A DNA stretch of 64,000 nucleotides. Source: Escherichia coli. Its GTDB lineage: Bacteria > Pseudomonadota > Gammaproteobacteria > Enterobacterales > Enterobacteriaceae. The position numbers and the translations under genes were made by a program. The notes under the pieces are model-generated. The model searched no databases. It was not told where the DNA came from and worked only from the letters and a program-made list of their open reading frames with translations. Positions 8,608 through 62,220 of this stretch are shown here, in pieces. The stretch's first letter is position 1, and each line of letters opens with the position of its first letter. The stretch lies in NCBI RefSeq assembly GCF_003019035.1, contig NZ_CP027447.1; one strand, written 5' to 3'.

Positions 8608-9067
<460 letters not shown>

Positions 9068-28757: not shown

Positions 28758-30161
28758 TCAGGAAGGAAATGCGAGTGATTTCACCGTCACCGGCACAACC
28801 GATCCGCCAAAAAGAGGCGTACCAATGTCGATATAGTCCCCCGCGCGGACAATCACTTCGTCAATGACTGCCAACGGGAGTTGTTGTAGCTGTGGGCGCA
28901 ACAACATGCCCAGAGCTTTACCAAAGTCCTGCCCGGCCACCACCAGCAGGGGATGCGGATTCGGAAAACGCGCGACGAAATCGACCAACGCGTTGATGAC
29001 CGTCAGTACCGCGGCGTAACGCACAGGCAGCGAGGCGGGAAGCGCCAGCACGTACGCGTCAGTTTTAGGATCAAGATCCAGCTGAATCAGCGCCTGTTGC
29101 CAGGCACTCACCAGATCCTTTTCATCAATTGGGATCGCCACCGGCAAGTTGCGCAGCGGCAGTTGTACGCCCTCCAGCCAGATTGTGCTGCCAGAGAGCG
29201 AAAGGGTATGTGCACCCGCGCCAATCACCGTGGCGCGCACGGTTTGCGCCGGAAACTGCACGTTCATCTCACGCAGGCGCGGATGGTCATGCAGCGCCGT
29301 TGCCAGAAGCGGGCCAATATCGGCAAAACAGAACGGGTCGGCGGGCTGGTGGCGATAACATTCGCCCACGCCGCCAGAAAGCGTAATGATTTCGGGCGTA
29401 ACACCTGCGGGCAGCAAACCGGTTTGCATTAATGCCTGCGCGAGCGGCGAAAGCGTTCCGTCAATCACTTCGACAATCAGCTCTGCCATCCGCCGGGTAA
29501 CCTGCACCAGCTGCGCGCCGGTCAGCGAACGGGCGTCGGTGCCTGCGCCGAAGCACTCATCCACAATCATCTGCCCCGGTTTATGAGCGTAAACCACGCG
29601 CCCCTGGCTGTCGGTTTCCAGCAGGCGACCGCCGACATTGAGGCAGGCGGTGCCGCTGATTTTTCCGGCATCGAACAGGGCGTAGTTCGCGGTGCCACCG
29701 CCGATATCGATATTCAGGACCCGACACAGCCGTTGTTCAGAAAGGGTTTGCGCCCCGGCACCGTGACCGGCGATCACGGATTCGAGATGCGGTCCAGCGC
29801 TGGCGACGACAAAATCGCCCAGCGACTGGGAGAGCGTCATCACCGCCGGGCGAGCGTTGCGGGTTTTCGCGCTTTCACCGGTGATGATGATGGCACCAGA
29901 ATCAACGCTTTCCGGCGCAATGCCCGCAGCCTGATATTGCTCGAGGATTAAGGTTTTCAGTTCCGCTTCTTTTAAACCACCCTGTTTATCGACAGGGGTA
30001 AAGAACACCGGGCTTTGCCAGCTAATTTCGCGTTTGATGAATTCGTAGCGCGGCACCTGCGACACCGCCGCACGGTTAACCAGCTCCAGGTGGGAGAAAA
30101 TCACCTGGGTGGTGGTGGTGCCGATATCGATACCGACGCTCAGTAGCTGGCGAGTGTTCAC
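28758..30161 (-). CDS. eutA: Ethanolamine ammonia-lyase reactivase EutA
   Basis: 467-aa ORF MNTRQLLSVGIDIGTTTTQVIFSHL...; starts 11 bp after eutB with no intervening prophage. Confidence 0.9.
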   Translation of the reverse strand: MNTRQLLSVGIDIGTTTTQVIFSHLELVNRAAVSQVPRYEFIKREISWQSPVFFTPVDKQGGLKEAELKTLILEQYQAAGIAPESVDSGAIIITGESAKTRNARPAVMTLSQSLGDFVVASAGPHLESVIAGHGAGAQTLSEQRLCRVLNIDIGGGTANYALFDAGKISGTACLNVGGRLLETDSQGRVVYAHKPGQMIVDECFGAGTDARSLTGAQLVQVTRRMAELIVEVIDGTLSPLAQALMQTGLLPAGVTPEIITLSGGVGECYRHQPADPFCFADIGPLLATALHDHPRLREMNVQFPAQTVRATVIGAGAHTLSLSGSTIWLEGVQLPLRNLPVAIPIDEKDLVSAWQQALIQLDLDPKTDAYVLALPASLPVRYAAVLTVINALVDFVARFPNPHPLLVVAGQDFGKALGMLLRPQLQQLPLAVIDEVIVRAGDYIDIGTPLFGGSVVPVTVKSLAFPS

Positions 30162-39035: not shown

Positions 39036-39400
39036 GAGTCGCCGCCTGTGAAAAACTTTCGTGTATCGTGACAATTTTTCGTCAGAGTAAATAACAAAAT
39101 TCGGCAAGCGCGTTTAAAAGGTGAGGTAGATCACTAAGAATGGAGAGATATTTTATGTTAAGAAAAAAAACATACATTGTATGAATATAAACGGGAACCA
39201 ATAAGTTTTGTTTATCATATGTACTACAACATCTTTTAATAATCCCTCGAATCACCCGACGTTGTATTTTTAATAATTAGCAGAATACATATTTAATGTA
39301 CTGTTGTATTCTGAAAAATATTATTATCTTCACCCCATTTAAAATACATCTTACGCGATGATTTTATTCAGGAAATAAATAAAATGGATGGATCCCTGGA
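39036..39400. promoter_or_regulatory. AT-rich divergent promoter region (eut operon promoter upstream of eutS; promoter of the plus-strand glycosyltransferase cassette)
   Basis: 365-bp strongly AT-rich spacer between the divergent eutS and glycosyltransferase starts; the regulatory role is inferred, no site was mapped. Confidence 0.5.
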
Positions 39401-40471
39401 ATGAAAATTCACTACCTTGTCACCACCCTCGAAGCGGGAGGCGCTGAATTTGCGATTCCTGATATTGTGACTACTCTGCAAGACCTTGGTCATGAGGTGA
39501 AAATTTATGTCTGTGAACCCCGCGATATGGGAGCAGCGCCTCGTCTGGAAGCCGCTGGATTATCCTGGTGTTTATTATCAAATCGGCGGCGTTCTGAACC
39601 CATGCTTGTAGCTGCTTATCTGGCAAAAATCATTCACGACAAACCCGATCTCATCTGGACTTCGTTAAGTTGGGGGACTCGTATTGGGCAATGGGTCGGC
39701 CGGCTTATGGGCATTCCTGTTATCAGTTTTAAACATAGCGCCAGCGTAAAACCAGCGACCTGGCGTATGCGCAACATGTCTCGTTTATGGATAGGAGATT
39801 CTGAAACCGTAGCTCAATACCTGCATGAAACCATGTTGATCCCGAAGCAACAAGTGCTGTGCTGGCCCTTTTTTCAGGCGAATCCGCAAGCTGCCCAAGC
39901 GCAAAACTGGGACGGGAAATCAGTTTTACAATTAGGCTCTGTTGGACGCCTGCATGAAGTTAAAAATTACGCTGGATTAATTACAGCACTCGCTTCGTTT
40001 GTAGATAAAAACCCGCAATTGCGCTCGCGAATCCGATTAACCATTCTCGGTGAAGGGCCTGAACAGGAAGCATTGCAAAAAACCATAACGCAACACGCGT
40101 TGGAGGATGTGGTTTGTTTAGCGGGTTTTTCTGCGGATGTCGAAAATTTTCTTGCCGGATTACATGTCTACATCCAGACCTCCCGCTACGAAGGGATGTG
40201 CCTCGCTGCACACGAAGCCATGAATGCAGGGCTTGCAATCATCACGACTCCTGTAGGCGAACTTAAAGAATCGGTAATAGATGGTCATACTGGATATACG
40301 CTTAATGGCGAGCTAACGCCAGCGCTGGAGGGTGTGCTTAACCGTATTTTAAGTGAACCCGAAGAATTAGAACGCTATGGGCAAAATGTGCGGCAGTATG
40401 TATTAGCGAAGTTCAGCCATGAAAATTTTGTCCAGTCTGCAATCAACATCGTCAATAGACTTATTCACTGA
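39401..40471 (+). CDS. Glycosyltransferase family 1 (GT-B fold, GT4-like) protein; accessory gene
   Basis: 356-aa ORF; C-terminal region RYEGMCLAAHEAMNAGLAIITTPVGELKESVIDGHTGY resembles the retaining GT1/GT4 sugar-donor binding motif; to my recollection K-12 has no gene between eutS and maeB. Confidence 0.7.
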   Translation: MKIHYLVTTLEAGGAEFAIPDIVTTLQDLGHEVKIYVCEPRDMGAAPRLEAAGLSWCLLSNRRRSEPMLVAAYLAKIIHDKPDLIWTSLSWGTRIGQWVGRLMGIPVISFKHSASVKPATWRMRNMSRLWIGDSETVAQYLHETMLIPKQQVLCWPFFQANPQAAQAQNWDGKSVLQLGSVGRLHEVKNYAGLITALASFVDKNPQLRSRIRLTILGEGPEQEALQKTITQHALEDVVCLAGFSADVENFLAGLHVYIQTSRYEGMCLAAHEAMNAGLAIITTPVGELKESVIDGHTGYTLNGELTPALEGVLNRILSEPEELERYGQNVRQYVLAKFSHENFVQSAINIVNRLIH

Positions 40472-40484
40472 ACAAGGCAGAAAA

Positions 40485-41387
40485 ATGAATTGCTATACCA
40501 CCGATCTTTGGCAGATAGGCATTGTTCAGGCCCCCATACAGCACATTGTTGCTTCTGGCAGTTTGGATGGCTTCAGGATTAAATGGATTACCCCGGATAA
40601 ATCACTCACTTTTCTTGCCGATCCTTTCGGTCTGTGGAAAAAAGGGGTTCTCTATCTTTTCGCGGAATCCTACGATTATCGGACTCGTCGTGGCGATATT
40701 ATCGCTTATAAGCTCAATGCTGACCTGGACGTCATTGAGCAACGAACTGTGCTACAAGAACCCTGGCATCTTTCTTATCCTTTTGTGTTTGAAGCCGATA
40801 ACGAAATCTGGATGTTACCTGAAGGATATAAATCAGGTACGCTAACGTTGTACCGCGCTATAGAGTTTCCCTGGCGATGGGAAAAGGTGCCAGATTTTTC
40901 ATTCCCTTGCGCTGCCATTGATGCCACCCCCTTTTACGCACAAGGAAAATGGTGGATGTTTTATACTCCCCCACTACCAAAGGCAGCCAGGACGGATACG
41001 TTAATGCTCGCTCATGCCCCCCATTTTATGGGGCCATGGGAAAACGTCCTGCAAACTGCCGCGCACAGGAATAAAAGCGGCGCGCGTATGGGCGGAACAC
41101 CATTTGATCATGATGGGCAAATTTTCTTACCAACACAAGATTGCAGCCGAACCTACGGTGGCGCATTGCAGATGCTGACACTAGACCCACAACGTTTATT
41201 AACTCCAGAATTTGCTGCCTCTGTGCGCCTGGAAGTGCCTGCAAGTGCCGCGCCTTTTATTGCTGGCATGCATACGCTTTCTGGCGTTGGCGACGTAACA
41301 TTCATTGATGCCAAGCGACACCTTAAAGGTTCGCCTCAGCGATTATGGGTGGATTTGCAGCGGCGGATACAGAAGTGGATCAGCTAA
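40485..41387 (+). CDS. Hypothetical protein, possibly beta-propeller glycoside-hydrolase-like; co-transcribed with the upstream glycosyltransferase
   Basis: ORF track 40419..41387 trimmed to ATG 40485 (MNCYTTDLWQIGIV...), 13 bp after the GT stop with aagg RBS; DPFG..W and aromatic-rich repeats (WHLSYPFVFEADNEIWMLPEGY, KWWMFYTPP); family assignment unverified. Confidence 0.55.
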   Translation: MNCYTTDLWQIGIVQAPIQHIVASGSLDGFRIKWITPDKSLTFLADPFGLWKKGVLYLFAESYDYRTRRGDIIAYKLNADLDVIEQRTVLQEPWHLSYPFVFEADNEIWMLPEGYKSGTLTLYRAIEFPWRWEKVPDFSFPCAAIDATPFYAQGKWWMFYTPPLPKAARTDTLMLAHAPHFMGPWENVLQTAAHRNKSGARMGGTPFDHDGQIFLPTQDCSRTYGGALQMLTLDPQRLLTPEFAASVRLEVPASAAPFIAGMHTLSGVGDVTFIDAKRHLKGSPQRLWVDLQRRIQKWIS

Positions 41388-52939: not shown

Positions 52940-55900
52940 ATGGCGAATTTCTTTATTGATCGCCCCATTTTTGCCTGGGTGCTGGCAATCCTGTTGTGTC
53001 TGACAGGTACCCTGGCGATTTTTTCATTGCCCGTTGAACAATACCCCGATCTCGCGCCACCGAATGTGCGAGTGACCGCTAACTATCCCGGCGCATCGGC
53101 CCAGACGCTGGAAAACACCGTGACCCAGGTTATCGAGCAAAATATGACCGGCCTCGATAATCTGATGTATATGTCATCTCAGAGCAGCGGCACCGGTCAG
53201 GCATCTGTCACGTTAAGTTTTAAAGCAGGCACCGATCCGGACGAAGCCGTGCAGCAAGTACAAAACCAGCTACAATCAGCCATGCGAAAGTTACCGCAGG
53301 CGGTGCAAAATCAGGGCGTGACGGTGCGTAAAACCGGCGATACCAACATTCTGACCATTGCCTTCGTCTCTACCGATGGTTCGATGGATAAACAGGATAT
53401 TGCCGATTATGTTGCCAGTAATATTCAGGACCCGTTAAGCCGCGTGAATGGCGTCGGGGATATCGATGCCTATGGTTCGCAATATTCCATGCGTATCTGG
53501 CTGGACCCGGCGAAACTCAACAGTTTCCAGTTGACGGCTAAAGATGTCACCGATGCCATTGAATCACAGAACGCGCAGATTGCGGTTGGGCAACTTGGTG
53601 GTACGCCTTCCGTCGATAAGCAGGCGCTCAACGCCACCATTAACGCCCAGTCACTGCTGCAAACACCAGAACAGTTCCGCGATATCACCTTGCGGGTGAA
53701 TCAGGACGGCTCAGAGGTAAGGCTGGGCGATGTCGCCACCGTCGAAATGGGGGCGGAAAAATACGATTATCTTAGCCGCTTCAATGGTAAGCCAGCCTCC
53801 GGGCTGGGGGTAAAACTGGCCTCCGGCGCGAACGAAATGGCGACAGCGGAGCTGGTGCTCAATCGTCTCGACGAGCTGGCGCAGTATTTCCCGCACGGAC
53901 TGGAATACAAGGTGGCGTATGAAACCACCTCGTTTGTTAAAGCCTCCATTGAAGACGTGGTGAAAACGCTGCTGGAAGCTATCGCTCTGGTTTTCCTCGT
54001 TATGTATCTGTTCCTGCAAAACTTCCGCGCCACGCTGATACCCACTATCGCCGTGCCGGTGGTGTTGATGGGAACCTTCTCCGTACTTTATGCCTTCGGT
54101 TACAGCGTCAACACCTTAACCATGTTCGCGATGGTGCTGGCGATCGGTCTGCTGGTGGATGATGCCATCGTGGTGGTGGAAAACGTCGAACGTATTATGA
54201 GTGAGGAAGGACTCACTCCTCGCGAAGCCACACGTAAATCGATGGGGCAGATCCAGGGGGCACTGGTCGGGATTGCGATGGTGCTTTCGGCGGTATTTGT
54301 ACCAATGGCCTTCTTCGGCGGCACCACCGGTGCCATCTATCGCCAGTTCTCTATTACCATTGTTGCAGCGATGGTGCTGTCAGTACTGGTAGCGATGATC
54401 CTCACTCCGGCTCTGTGTGCCACGCTACTTAAGCCACTGAAAAAAGGTGAGCATCACGGGCAAAAAGGCTTTTTTGCCTGGTTTAACCAGATGTTTAACC
54501 GCAACGCCGAACGCTACGAAAAAGGGGTGGCGAAAATTCTCCACCGTAGCCTGCGCTGGATTGTGATTTATGTCCTGCTGCTTGGCGGCATGGTGTTCCT
54601 GTTCCTGCGTTTGCCGACGTCGTTCTTGCCACTTGAAGACCGTGGCATGTTTACTACCTCGGTACAGTTGCCCAGCGGTTCAACCCAACAACAGACCCTG
54701 AAAGTCGTTGAGCAAATCGAGAAATACTACTTCACCCATGAAAAAGACAACATCATGTCGGTGTTTGCCACTGTTGGTTCTGGCCCTGGGGGTAACGGGC
54801 AAAACGTGGCGAGAATGTTTATCCGCCTGAAAGACTGGAGCGAACGCGACAGTAAGACCGGCACCTCGTTTGCCATTATCGAGCGTGCAACGAAGGCGTT
54901 TAACAAGATTAAAGAAGCTCGCGTTATCGCCAGCAGCCCGCCAGCAATTAGCGGTCTTGGTAGTTCTGCAGGTTTTGATATGGAGTTGCAGGACCACGCT
55001 GGAGCGGGTCACGATGCGCTGATGGCAGCACGTAACCAGTTGCTGGCGCTGGCGGCGGAAAACCCGGAGCTAACCCGTGTGCGCCATAACGGCCTCGACG
55101 ACAGTCCGCAGTTGCAGATTGATATCGACCAGCGTAAAGCTCAGGCGCTGGGCGTTGCTATCGACGATATTAACGACACACTGCAAACCGCCTGGGGTTC
55201 GAGCTATGTGAATGACTTTATGGATCGCGGTCGCGTGAAGAAAGTCTATGTGCAGGCAGCTGCGCCGTATCGCATGCTGCCAGATGACATCAATCTCTGG
55301 TATGTCCGAAATAAAGATGGCGGCATGGTGCCCTTCTCTGCTTTCGCGACCTCACGCTGGGAGACAGGCTCGCCGCGTCTGGAACGCTATAACGGATATT
55401 CTGCGGTTGAGATTGTTGGGGAAGCCGCACCAGGAGTCAGTACCGGTACGGCGATGGATATTATGGAATCGTTAGTGAAGCAGTTGCCAAACGGCTTTGG
55501 TCTGGAGTGGACGGCGATGTCGTATCAGGAGCGGCTTTCCGGCGCGCAGGCTCCGGCGCTGTACGCCATTTCCTTGCTGGTGGTATTCCTGTGTCTTGCG
55601 GCGTTGTATGAAAGCTGGTCGGTGCCGTTCTCGGTAATGCTGGTCGTGCCGCTGGGGGTTATCGGCGCGCTGCTGGCAACCTGGATGCGCGGGCTGGAAA
55701 ACGACGTTTACTTCCAGGTGGGCCTGTTAACGGTCATTGGTTTATCGGCGAAAAACGCCATCCTGATCGTCGAGTTTGCTAACGAGATGAACCAAAAAGG
55801 CCACGACCTGTTTGAAGCGACGCTCCACGCCTGCCGTCAGCGTTTACGCCCGATTCTGATGACTTCGCTGGCATTTATCTTCGGCGTATTGCCAATGGCA

Positions 55901-56053
55901 ACCAGCACGGGTGCCGGTTCCGGTGGTCAGCATGCGGTGGGTACTGGCGTAATGGGCGGGATGATTTCGGCCACTATTCTGGCTATTTACTTCGTGCCGC
56001 TGTTCTTTGTGCTGGTGCGCCGCCGCTTCCCGCTGAAGCCGCGCCCGGAATAA
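52940..56053 (+). CDS. acrD: RND-family aminoglycoside efflux pump AcrD
   Basis: 1037-aa [58 protein letters not shown]... Confidence 0.95.
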
Positions 56054-56064
56054 GCAATAAAAAA

Positions 56065-56092
56065 GGCGACATGCTAATGTGTCGCCTTTTTC
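56065..56092 (+). terminator. Intrinsic terminator after acrD
   Basis: ggcgaca-tgctaatg-tgtcgcc hairpin followed by ttttt, 12 bp after the acrD stop. Confidence 0.65.
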
Positions 56093-56151
56093 AATTTTCC
56101 GATTAAGAACCTGCTCAGCGGGTTCTTGCTGTTTGTACTTTGTCTCAGGAA

Positions 56152-56211
56152 TTACTTACGAAGCATAACTTCGATAAAGTCTTTCCAGTTCCCCAGTTCA
56201 CGTTCAATCAT
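56152..56211 (-). CDS. ypfM: Small protein YpfM (19 aa)
   Basis: Reverse-strand ATG at 56209-56211 translates to MIERELGNWKDFIEVMLRK-stop, matching the YpfM sequence as I recall it; below the ORF-track length cut-off. Confidence 0.6.
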   Translation of the reverse strand: MIERELGNWKDFIEVMLRK

Positions 56212-56573
56212 AACAACCTCTCTTATAATTATGGGTATTCTACGGAAACAATATACCGTGGTGAAGCTAATTTACTCGATTGCTGCGATGACTACCTCCG
56301 GGGGACAAACCTTATGTAAATACTATGGTCCTGCGGTGATAATTTGTATGTGATACACAGCAACATTTCGAGATATTCATACGGCATCTAATACTGATTT
56401 AATTCTGGTTAAAATACAGACAGATAACAAGATGAATATTCTTAATGTTTACGTTAAAAATGTTTAATGTTATTTAATAGTTGTTAATTTGAATACTTCG
56501 ATAATGTTATATTTCCTGATAATCATTTGCAGGCAAAATGTTTTCACCCTTAAATGAGTATTTATTCTCATAA

Positions 56574-56948
<375 letters not shown>

Positions 56949-62053: not shown

Positions 62054-62220
62054 AGATACCTCAACAATATATTCATTATAGAAATGATCGTAGGTGGTTC
62101 AGAGGAAGATTACCACAGGAAAGCGGGATGAAATGGCGGAGGAATGAGCGTTCAATGCACATCTTCCGAGAGCGGTTGTCTTGCCGTGCCAGCTGCACGG
62201 CAAGATGATGAACAGAAAAA

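What the first reader, a model, noticed from the sequence alone, without database searches (positions are those of the whole stretch)
56152..56211. 19-aa small protein ORF (ypfM) missed by the ORF track
The minus strand encodes MIERELGNWKDFIEVMLRK, which matches the small protein YpfM as I remember it. It is invisible in the six-frame track because of the length cut-off, a reminder that other small proteins may be missed elsewhere in the window.
Basis: partly seen in the sequence, partly recalled or inferred. Interest (0 to 1): 0.3.

Follow-up and report, generated by a model that had tools for sequence, protein, structure and literature searches.

The report
Known 19-aa small protein gene ypfM

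Summary
Confirmed and already known. Window 56152..56211 (-) translates to MIERELGNWKDFIEVMLRK*. This is identical to K-12 b4606 YpfM and sits in the same place, convergent with acrD and divergent from yffB-dapE. RefSeq annotates it as 'protein YpfM'. It matches the NCBIfam equivalog NF033843 at 59.2 bits (cut-off 33). The 60-nt CDS is found in 5423 of 5426 complete E. coli genomes.

An ORF this short is not informative alone: the window holds 527 ATG ORFs of 19 aa or more. Comparative data show it is a real gene. A 19-aa ortholog lies upstream of yffB in 72 of 80 Enterobacterales species. Variation is concentrated at third codon positions, and pN/pS is 0.155 in frame against 1.7-2.0 in the other sense frames. 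The -35/-10 hexamers, Shine-Dalgarno sequence, stop position and terminator are conserved.

Published top-down mass spectrometry detects the intact, N-formylated peptide. The Salmonella homolog is the short Hfq-associated mRNA 'STnc250'.

The peptide is not hydrophobic and is predicted to be one amphipathic helix. My best inference is a cytosolic protein-binding modulator, but no function has been shown. In the annotations consulted, no other CDS under 60 aa lies in the window. Interest is low.

The parts
56152..56211 (-). ypfM coding sequence: 19 codons plus a TAA stop at 56154..56152. Product is MIERELGNWKDFIEVMLRK.
   Evidence: Translation. Identical to K-12 b4606. NCBIfam NF033843 at 59.2 bits against a cut-off of 33. 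RefSeq CDS at the same place. pN/pS 0.155 in this frame.
56217..56224 (-). Shine-Dalgarno sequence AAGAGAGG, 5 nt upstream of the ATG.
   Evidence: Read from the sequence. Near-invariant across genera.
56237..56265 (-). Sigma-70-type promoter: -35 TTCACC (56265..56260), 17-nt spacer, -10 TAGAAT (56242..56237). The inferred transcription start is near 56230, which gives a 5' UTR of about 19 nt.
   Evidence: Consensus scan. The same two hexamers are listed as the ypfM constitutive RpoD promoter in a genomic SELEX study (PMC3946193). The -10 and TTCA(C/A) -35 elements are conserved in most of 12 genera; they are divergent in Klebsiella sp. BIGb0407 and Dickeya. The transcription start itself is inferred, not measured.
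56104..56128 (-). Hairpin in the 3' UTR with an 11-bp stem (AAGAACCcgctgagcaGGTTCTT). Among the sampled species it is found only in E. coli and E. albertii.
   Evidence: This is the extra segment that lowers the Rfam STnc250 score.
56052..56093 (-). Rho-independent terminator (GAAAAAGGCGAC...GTCGCCTTTTTT). It is bidirectional and shared with the convergent acrD gene, which ends at 56053 on the + strand.
   Evidence: Terminator scan. RNA fold. Stem and U-run are conserved. Dickeya, which has no adjacent acrD, still has its own terminator after ypfM.
56053..56172 (-). Region matching Rfam RF01409 'STnc250 Hfq binding RNA'. It covers the 3' part of the CDS, the 3' UTR and the terminator.
   Evidence: 37.6 bits, E = 8e-6, below the gathering score of 42. 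Sittka et al. 2008 equate STnc250 with the ypfM small mRNA.

Best explanation
This is the known gene ypfM. It is a self-contained, monocistronic transcription unit of about 180 nt on the minus strand. It has a sigma-70 promoter (TTCACC-17-TAGAAT), a 5' UTR of about 19 nt with a strong Shine-Dalgarno sequence, a 19-codon ORF, a poorly conserved 3' UTR, and a Rho-independent terminator shared with the convergent acrD gene.

The functional product is the peptide MIERELGNWKDFIEVMLRK. Identity, conservation and expression are shown. The mode of action is inferred. The peptide is non-hydrophobic with net charge 0, and it most likely folds into a single amphipathic alpha-helix. The invariant face (I2, E5, L6, W9, F12, I13, M16, L17) would dock onto a larger cytosolic or membrane-peripheral partner and modulate it, while the variable stripe (positions 4, 8, 11, 15) faces solvent.

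I put about 0.97 on the identity and the claim that it is translated. I put about 0.4 on the amphipathic-helix, partner-binding mechanism. No partner or phenotype is known. The overall confidence figure given for this explanation (0.9) refers to the identification as the known, translated gene ypfM.
For: Identity:
- The translation is identical to K-12 b4606.
- RefSeq annotates the CDS in the same acrD-ypfM-yffB context.
- NCBIfam equivalog NF033843 matches at 59.2 bits against a cut-off of 33.
- The CDS is present in 5423 of 5426 complete E. coli genomes, and 4787 of them are at least 99% identical.

Selection on the peptide:
- 72 of 80 yffB-anchored loci from different Enterobacterales species carry a 19-aa ortholog; in 70 of the 72 the stop falls in the same place.
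- The non-majority fraction per codon position is 0.04 / 0.06 / 0.185. Leu6, Leu17 and Arg18 use several synonymous codons. The stop codon varies between TAA, TAG and TGA while its position stays fixed.
- pN/pS is 0.155 in frame against 1.68-1.76 in the other two sense frames.

Transcription unit:
- The promoter scan finds the same hexamers that the genomic SELEX paper lists for ypfM.
- Mean identity to the window is 0.79 for the 25 nt upstream of the ATG (5' UTR/SD) and 0.90 for the CDS. The terminator stem is conserved, but the first 60 nt of the 3' UTR score only 0.29.

Expression, from the literature:
- Intact YpfM was detected by top-down MS with 100% coverage and an N-formyl-Met. It was also detected by DIA and PRM, and in an earlier proteome study (PMC12529367).
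- Salmonella STnc250, equated with ypfM, is a stable short mRNA of about 220 nt with growth-phase-dependent expression (PMC2515195).

Helix:
- The hydrophobic moment at 100 degrees is 0.546, reached by 283 of 10000 shuffles.
- The variability vector points about 197 degrees away from the hydrophobic vector.
- AlphaFold2, run on a natural 30-aa read-through variant with the ortholog alignment, gives one helix over residues 2-29 with mean pLDDT 85.8.
Against: - No function, partner or phenotype is reported in any paper I could read.
- The helical-periodicity statistics are modest: about 0.03 for hydrophobicity, and 759 of 10000 shuffles for variability.
- AlphaFold2 readily predicts helices for short amphipathic sequences, and the modelled sequence was a 30-aa variant, not the 19-mer.
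- There is no Pfam, PDB or PADLOC match to lean on.
- The mRNA co-purifies with Hfq in Salmonella (24 versus 6 reads), so an RNA-level role cannot be excluded.
Confidence: 0.9

Rival explanations
1. The transcript is primarily, or additionally, an Hfq-binding regulatory RNA (Rfam STnc250). On this view it is a dual-function RNA whose 3' part base-pairs with target mRNAs.
For: - Rfam RF01409 matches 56053..56172 (-) at E = 8e-6.
- Hfq co-immunoprecipitation enriches it about 4-fold in Salmonella (24 versus 6 reads; PMC2515195).
- The predicted transcript folds more stably than shuffled versions (z = -3.19) and ends in a hairpin plus U-tail.
Against: - The score of 37.6 is below Rfam's gathering score of 42.
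- The authors who named STnc250 themselves reclassified it as a small mRNA.
- Outside the terminator the 3' UTR is poorly conserved (0.29) and varies in length from about 60 to 110 nt, so no conserved seed is evident.
- Substitutions in the CDS follow codon synonymy.
- The only Rfam helix inside the CDS has no compensatory changes, and its second pair is broken in 15 of 55 distinct sequences.
- Conservation of the terminator is also explained by its sharing with acrD.
Confidence: 0.1
2. YpfM is a modulator of the neighbouring RND pump AcrD, by analogy with the small protein AcrZ, which binds AcrB.
For: ypfM lies 75-458 nt downstream of the acrD stop in 70 of the 72 loci that carry it. The two genes are jointly absent from seven of the eight yffB loci that lack ypfM.
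Against: - The co-occurrence is confounded by physical linkage and by shared ancestry.
- The two genes are convergent, not co-transcribed.
- Dickeya undicola keeps ypfM next to yffB without an adjacent acrD. Erwinia endophytica has acrD but a different 64-aa ORF in the place of ypfM.
- YpfM has 8 charged residues in 19 and a mean hydrophobicity of -0.12, so it cannot be a transmembrane helix like AcrZ (the AcrZ comparison is from my own knowledge).
Confidence: 0.06
3. It is a leader peptide (cis-regulatory upstream ORF) or a type I toxin.
For: Its small size and stand-alone short transcript resemble both classes.
Against: - No gene follows on the same strand. The ORF is followed by a terminator and then the convergent acrD, so there is nothing to attenuate.
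- The amino-acid sequence itself is under selection.
- The peptide is not hydrophobic, and no antisense RNA family was detected.
Confidence: 0.02
4. It is a chance ORF with no function.
For: ORFs of this length are abundant: 527 ATG ORFs of 19 aa or more in the window.
Against: Frame-specific purifying selection, fixed length across genera, and conserved SD and promoter. The peptide is also detected by MS.
Confidence: 0.01

Closest known systems
YpfM of E. coli K-12 (b4606; NCBIfam NF033843 small_YpfM; RefSeq WP_001386977.1)
   Same: - Identical 19-aa sequence.
- Same genomic position and orientation between acrD and yffB.
- The coding sequence, and the 100 nt upstream of it that carry the promoter and SD, are identical. 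MG1655 shows 4 differences in the 421 nt compared, and none of them lies in the CDS.
   Different: Nothing of substance. The window comes from a non-K-12 strain: it has 4 mismatches in 64 kb against strain SCU-301, and is 96-98% identical to MG1655.
Salmonella STnc250 (Rfam RF01409, 'Hfq binding RNA')
   Same: It is the orthologous locus, acrD/yffB intergenic. The Rfam model covers the 3' end of the ypfM CDS, the 3' UTR and the terminator. It is described as a stable short mRNA carrying the ypfM ORF.
   Different: E. coli carries an extra 3' UTR segment, including the hairpin at 56104..56128, at the point where the Rfam model has a 9-nt spacer. The match therefore falls below the gathering score, 37.6 against 42. 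Hfq association has not been tested for this sequence.
Other very short, non-membrane enterobacterial small proteins that act by binding a larger protein (for example MntS, 42 aa, and SgrT, 43 aa; from my own knowledge)
   Same: Stand-alone or sRNA-embedded small ORFs whose peptide is the effector. In one MS study YpfM was detected reproducibly by PRM only in low-Mn2+ minimal medium, alongside MntS and AzuC.
   Different: There is no sequence similarity, and no partner or phenotype is known for YpfM. The resemblance concerns the likely mode of action only, not family membership.

Membership tests
YpfM (NCBIfam NF033843, equivalog) | Score above the curated cut-off of the family HMM over its full length | tested here: met
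   59.2 bits against a cut-off of 33, E = 2.4e-16, profile positions 1-19 of 19.
YpfM (NCBIfam NF033843, equivalog) | Identity with the reference K-12 product b4606 | tested here: met
   L002:4308-4367(-) translates to the identical MIERELGNWKDFIEVMLRK*.
YpfM (NCBIfam NF033843, equivalog) | Conserved position: convergent with acrD, divergent from yffB-dapE | tested here: met
   Window: acrD 52940..56053 (+), ypfM 56152..56211 (-), yffB 56592..56948 (+). The same order is seen in K-12 and in 70 other species.
YpfM (NCBIfam NF033843, equivalog) | The peptide is actually translated | not testable with these tools
   The literature covers K-12 only: top-down MS with 100% coverage and fMet, plus DIA and PRM (PMC12529367). 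Indirect support here comes from the strong, conserved SD and a pN/pS of 0.155.
Rfam RF01409 STnc250 (Hfq-binding sRNA) | Covariance-model score at or above the gathering threshold | tested here: not met
   37.6 bits against 42, although E = 8e-6 and the full model length is aligned. The shortfall is due to an E. coli-specific 3' UTR insertion.
Rfam RF01409 STnc250 (Hfq-binding sRNA) | Conserved RNA secondary structure supported by covariation | tested here: not met
   Helix 1, inside the CDS, has no compensatory changes, and its second pair is broken in 15 of 55 distinct sequences. The middle helix region is not conserved. Only the terminator hairpin is conserved.
Rfam RF01409 STnc250 (Hfq-binding sRNA) | Binding to Hfq and regulation of targets in trans | not testable with these tools
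   The only evidence is about 4-fold co-IP enrichment in Salmonella. No targets are reported.
Leader peptides / attenuators | A regulated gene downstream on the same strand | tested here: not met
   A terminator and then the convergent acrD follow the ORF.
Small membrane proteins / type I toxins (for example AcrZ-like proteins) | A hydrophobic transmembrane segment | tested here: not met
   8 of 19 residues are charged, mean Eisenberg hydrophobicity is -0.12, and net charge is 0.

The most novel reading that the evidence does not exclude
The ypfM transcript could be a true dual-function RNA. It would encode the conserved 19-aa peptide and also act through Hfq as a base-pairing regulator. Alternatively, the peptide could be a dedicated modulator of a neighbouring gene product (AcrD, or the YffB/DapE pair). 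My evidence makes both unlikely but does not exclude either.
Probability: 0.1. Interest if true: 0.45.

Novelty: already known. Interest (0 to 1): 0.07.

Why it matters
It matters little as a discovery. ypfM is annotated in K-12 and by NCBI's pipeline, has a dedicated NCBIfam model, and its product has been seen by mass spectrometry.

Its value is as a positive control. It also shows that a 19-codon gene can be verified from comparative sequence data alone.

The open question is what YpfM does. The comparative data here give concrete starting points for an experiment:
- nine invariant residues (M1, E5, W9, K10, F12, I13, M16, L17, R18), most of them on or next to one helical face;
- a variable stripe at positions 4, 8, 11 and 15;
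- tight linkage to acrD and to yffB-dapE.

Tried and rejected
- The primary small-protein papers (Hemm 2008, PMC2614699; Hemm 2010, PMC2798279; EcoSal 2020, PMC7212919; the Weaver 2019 ribosome-profiling paper) are not held. I therefore could not cite SPA-tag or ribosome-profiling evidence directly.
- No RIL-seq supplement is held for Melamed 2016.
- The listing of cluster members refuses 19-aa queries. For the HMM and PDB tools I added the in-frame upstream codon (V) to reach 20 aa.
- Pfam, PDB sequence search and PADLOC gave no matches.
- A full-text search for 'b4606' returned only irrelevant hits.
- I did not spend a 5.8-billion-protein search on a 19-mer. Only near-identical hits could reach significance, and the yffB-anchored genome scan had already given the distribution.
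- I considered a linker-fusion AlphaFold run (YpfM with YffB or AcrD) and rejected it. The tool returns neither PAE nor coordinates, so an interface could not be judged.
- Plasmid hits are chromosome fragments or mislabelled chromosomes, not evidence of mobility.
- I rejected the leader-peptide, type I toxin and chance-ORF readings (see the rival explanations).

Full report
**1. The observation**

The reverse complement of window 56152..56211 reads ATG ATT GAA CGT GAA CTG GGG AAC TGG AAA GAC TTT ATC GAA GTT ATG CTT CGT AAG TAA.

A 19-codon ORF is not in itself above chance. The window contains 527 ATG-initiated ORFs of 19 aa or more, and 245 of 15-30 aa. The case has to rest on other evidence.

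**2. Identity**

- The 801-nt neighbourhood matches 5425 of 5426 complete E. coli genomes. In every listed record the features under the match are acrD, 'ypfM: protein YpfM' and yffB.
- In strain SCU-301 the ypfM CDS (WP_001386977.1) occupies exactly the corresponding 60 bases.
- In K-12 MG1655 the gene is b4606, at 2590807..2590866 on the minus strand between acrD (b2470) and yffB (b2471). Its translation is identical to the window's.
- The 421 nt around the gene differ from MG1655 at four positions, none of them in the CDS or the 100 nt upstream of it.
- NCBIfam has an equivalog model for this protein, NF033843 small_YpfM, 19 positions long. The peptide scores 59.2 bits against a cut-off of 33, E = 2.4e-16. 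Pfam has nothing.
- The 60-nt CDS alone is found in 5423 of 5426 complete genomes, and 4787 of these are at least 99% identical.

The window itself is not K-12. It is collinear with SCU-301 with 4 mismatches in 64 kb and is 96-98% identical to MG1655, with several structural differences.

**3. Is it a real gene? Comparative test**

I anchored on the neighbouring yffB protein and fetched 80 loci from different species in the GTDB species-representative collection. In 72 of them a YpfM-like 19-aa ORF lies upstream of yffB on the opposite strand. The species include Escherichia, Citrobacter, Klebsiella, Enterobacter, Cedecea, Kosakonia, Buttiauxella, Shimwellia, Yersinia nurmii, Dickeya undicola and '[Erwinia] mediterraneensis'. 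In 70 of these 72 the stop codon follows codon 19.

Codon-level pattern:
- Among 55 distinct coding sequences, the mean non-majority fraction is 0.04 and 0.06 at codon positions 1 and 2, but 0.185 at position 3.
- Leu6 uses six synonymous codons and Leu17 five.
- The stop codon switches between TAA, TAG and TGA while its position is fixed.

Nei-Gojobori counts:
- In the annotated frame, pS = 0.489 and pN = 0.076, a ratio of 0.155.
- The other two sense frames give ratios of 1.76 and 1.68.
- Two antisense frames give 1.9-2.1. The antisense frame that shares third positions with the sense frame gives 0.30, as expected.

This is the signature of purifying selection on the peptide in this frame.

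Nine residues are invariant in 22 distinct peptides: M1, E5, W9, K10, F12, I13, M16, L17 and R18. Two lineage-specific variants exist. Yersinia nurmii has 20 aa. Lelliottia nimipressuralis has K19N and has lost the stop, giving 30 aa.

**4. Anatomy of the transcription unit**

Promoter:
- The only sigma-70-like promoter match in 55900..56700 is TTCACC-17-TAGAAT at 56265..56237 on the minus strand.
- The same two hexamers are printed for ypfM in the genomic SELEX catalogue of constitutive RpoD promoters. That catalogue also marks H-NS in the ypfM<>yffB spacer (PMC3946193).
- From the -10 hexamer I infer a transcription start near 56230.

Translation signals and ORF:
- An AAGAGAGG Shine-Dalgarno sequence (56224..56217) lies 5 nt before the ATG.

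3' end:
- After the stop come a hairpin with an 11-bp stem (56128..56104) and a strong Rho-independent terminator (56093..56058 plus a U-run).
- The terminator is bidirectional and serves the convergent acrD, which ends at 56053.
- The predicted RNA is about 180 nt long. It folds at -48.2 kcal/mol, z = -3.19 against shuffles.

Conservation across 72 sequences, as mean identity to the window:

| Segment | Mean identity |
|---|---|
| Upstream, first 66 nt (about -120 to -55) | 0.47 |
| Promoter block | 0.60 |
| 25 nt upstream of the ATG (5' UTR/SD) | 0.79 |
| CDS | 0.90 |
| First 60 nt of the 3' UTR | 0.29 |
| Terminator region | 0.61 |

Within the promoter block the -10 and TTCA elements are high. 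Within the terminator region the stem and U-run score 0.8-0.9.

The 3' UTR varies from about 60 to 110 nt in length. The inner hairpin is restricted to E. coli and E. albertii in this sample. Dickeya has no adjacent acrD but still has its own terminator after ypfM.

**5. The Rfam match**

Rfam RF01409 'STnc250 Hfq binding RNA' aligns to 56053..56172 (-) at 37.6 bits, E = 8e-6. This is below the gathering score of 42, because E. coli has 36 nt where the model has a 9-nt spacer.

Sittka et al. 2008 (PMC2515195) list STnc250 in the acrD/yffB spacer of Salmonella with the alias 'ypfM ORF'. They report 24 versus 6 reads in Hfq versus control co-IP and a Northern band of about 220 nt. [quoted passage not shown] It was also the most highly expressed of the mapped Hfq-set RNAs in S. 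Typhi RNA-seq. So the Rfam entry describes the 3' part of this mRNA.

I tested whether RNA structure, rather than the peptide, explains conservation inside the CDS. The one Rfam helix there (GAAG/CUUC, spanning codons 14-15 and 17-18) shows no compensatory change, and its second pair is broken in 15 of 55 distinct sequences by synonymous Leu17 changes. A riboregulatory second function is therefore not supported, but it is not excluded either.

**6. Expression, from the literature**

- A 2025 methods paper detected YpfM in E. coli by top-down MS with 100% sequence coverage, including the N-formyl-Met proteoform. It also detected YpfM by DIA and PRM (PMC12529367).
- That paper calls YpfM one of three small proteins 'commonly identified by LC-MS/MS' and notes earlier detection in a large proteome survey.
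- By PRM, YpfM was seen in all replicates only in low-Mn2+ minimal medium.
- A review of airborne-bacteria transcriptomics notes that ypfM, 'of unknown function', was the single gene downregulated after 30 min aloft in one study.
- A MarA ChIP peak with a weak marbox lies in the Salmonella ypfM<>yffB spacer.
- K-12's own annotation reads 'uncharacterized protein YpfM'.

From my own memory, not verifiable here because the papers are not held: the ORF was proposed in Wassarman et al. 2001, and its translation was shown by chromosomal SPA tagging in Hemm et al. 2008.

**7. How it most likely works**

What is shown is a conserved, translated 19-aa peptide made from its own short mRNA.

Several classes can be excluded:
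- It is not a leader peptide, because no gene follows on the same strand.
- It is not a membrane peptide or type I toxin. It has 8 charged residues in 19, a mean hydrophobicity of -0.12 and net charge 0.
- It has no PADLOC defence-system match and no PDB relative.

The rest is inferred. The sequence has a helical hydrophobic moment of 0.546 at 100 degrees, reached by 283 of 10000 shuffles. The most variable positions (4, 8, 11, 15) form an i, i+4, i+3, i+4 stripe whose vector points about 197 degrees from the hydrophobic vector. That variability periodicity alone is not significant, at 759 of 10000 shuffles. AlphaFold2 was run on the natural 30-aa read-through variant with the ortholog alignment. 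It gives one continuous helix over residues 2-29 with mean pLDDT 85.8, and 94 over residues 11-20.

My committed model is therefore an amphipathic helix that docks by its invariant face onto a larger protein and modulates it. My confidence in this step is about 0.4.

Candidate partners suggested only by linkage are AcrD and YffB/DapE.
- acrD is adjacent in 70 of 72 loci. However, Dickeya has ypfM without acrD, and Erwinia endophytica has acrD without ypfM.
- For YffB/DapE the sampling was anchored on yffB, so that linkage is not an independent observation.

**8. Verdict**

The feature is already known and annotated, so interest is low.

ypfM is the only CDS under 60 aa annotated across the window in SCU-301, and across the partly collinear MG1655 interval examined. 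The next smallest is ypfN at 66 aa. A crude screen found just one other intergenic SD-preceded ATG ORF of 10-50 aa, at 62128..62208 (+), which I did not evaluate.

Noticed in passing
window 56104-56128: A hairpin with an 11-bp stem (AAGAACC...GGTTCTT) sits in the ypfM 3' UTR. Among 72 sampled species it is present only in E. coli and E. albertii. It accounts for the sub-threshold Rfam STnc250 score. Its origin and role are unknown.
   Followed up: partly
window 56322-56329 and 56345-56375: Two strongly conserved blocks lie in the ypfM-yffB intergenic region: ACTATGG, and TGTGATACACAGCAACATTTCGAGATATTC. Both sit just upstream of the published yffB -35 hexamer (TTCATA). They may be transcription-factor sites. 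H-NS (E. coli) and MarA (Salmonella) binding are reported for this spacer in the literature.
   Followed up: partly
window ~39152-41381: Compared with K-12 there is about 2.2 kb of extra DNA between eutS and maeB. In strain SCU-301 this segment is annotated as a glycosyltransferase and a 'glucosamine inositolphosphorylceramide transferase family protein'.
   Followed up: no
window ~28758-28780: eutB and eutA are adjacent here. The K-12 cryptic prophage CPZ-55 (6.8 kb, intZ to yffS), which interrupts the eut operon in MG1655, is absent.
   Followed up: no
window ~9061-9065: The K-12 segment that carries most of yfeK and all of yfeS has no megablast match in the window. SCU-301 annotates yfeK next to cysM and no yfeS.
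   Followed up: no
window 62128-62208 (+): This is the only other intergenic ATG ORF of 10-50 aa with an SD-like motif: 26 aa, MKWRRNERSMHIFRERLSCRASCTAR, in the ypfJ-purC spacer and antisense to both genes. I did not test its conservation. It is probably a chance ORF.
   Followed up: no
L029 2111 downward (-); L073 957 downward (-); L082 2029-2500: Three lineage variants. Lelliottia nimipressuralis YpfM has K19N and a lost stop, giving 30 aa. Yersinia nurmii YpfM is 20 aa. Erwinia endophytica has a different 64-aa ORF (MNYLKASSVH...) between acrD and yffB in place of ypfM.
   Followed up: partly
NZ_CP109874.1 (hit H2), region homologous to window 55900-56700: E. coli strain EC488 carries an IS1 insertion inside the acrD-ypfM-yffB stretch. 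I did not determine whether it disrupts ypfM or its promoter.
   Followed up: no
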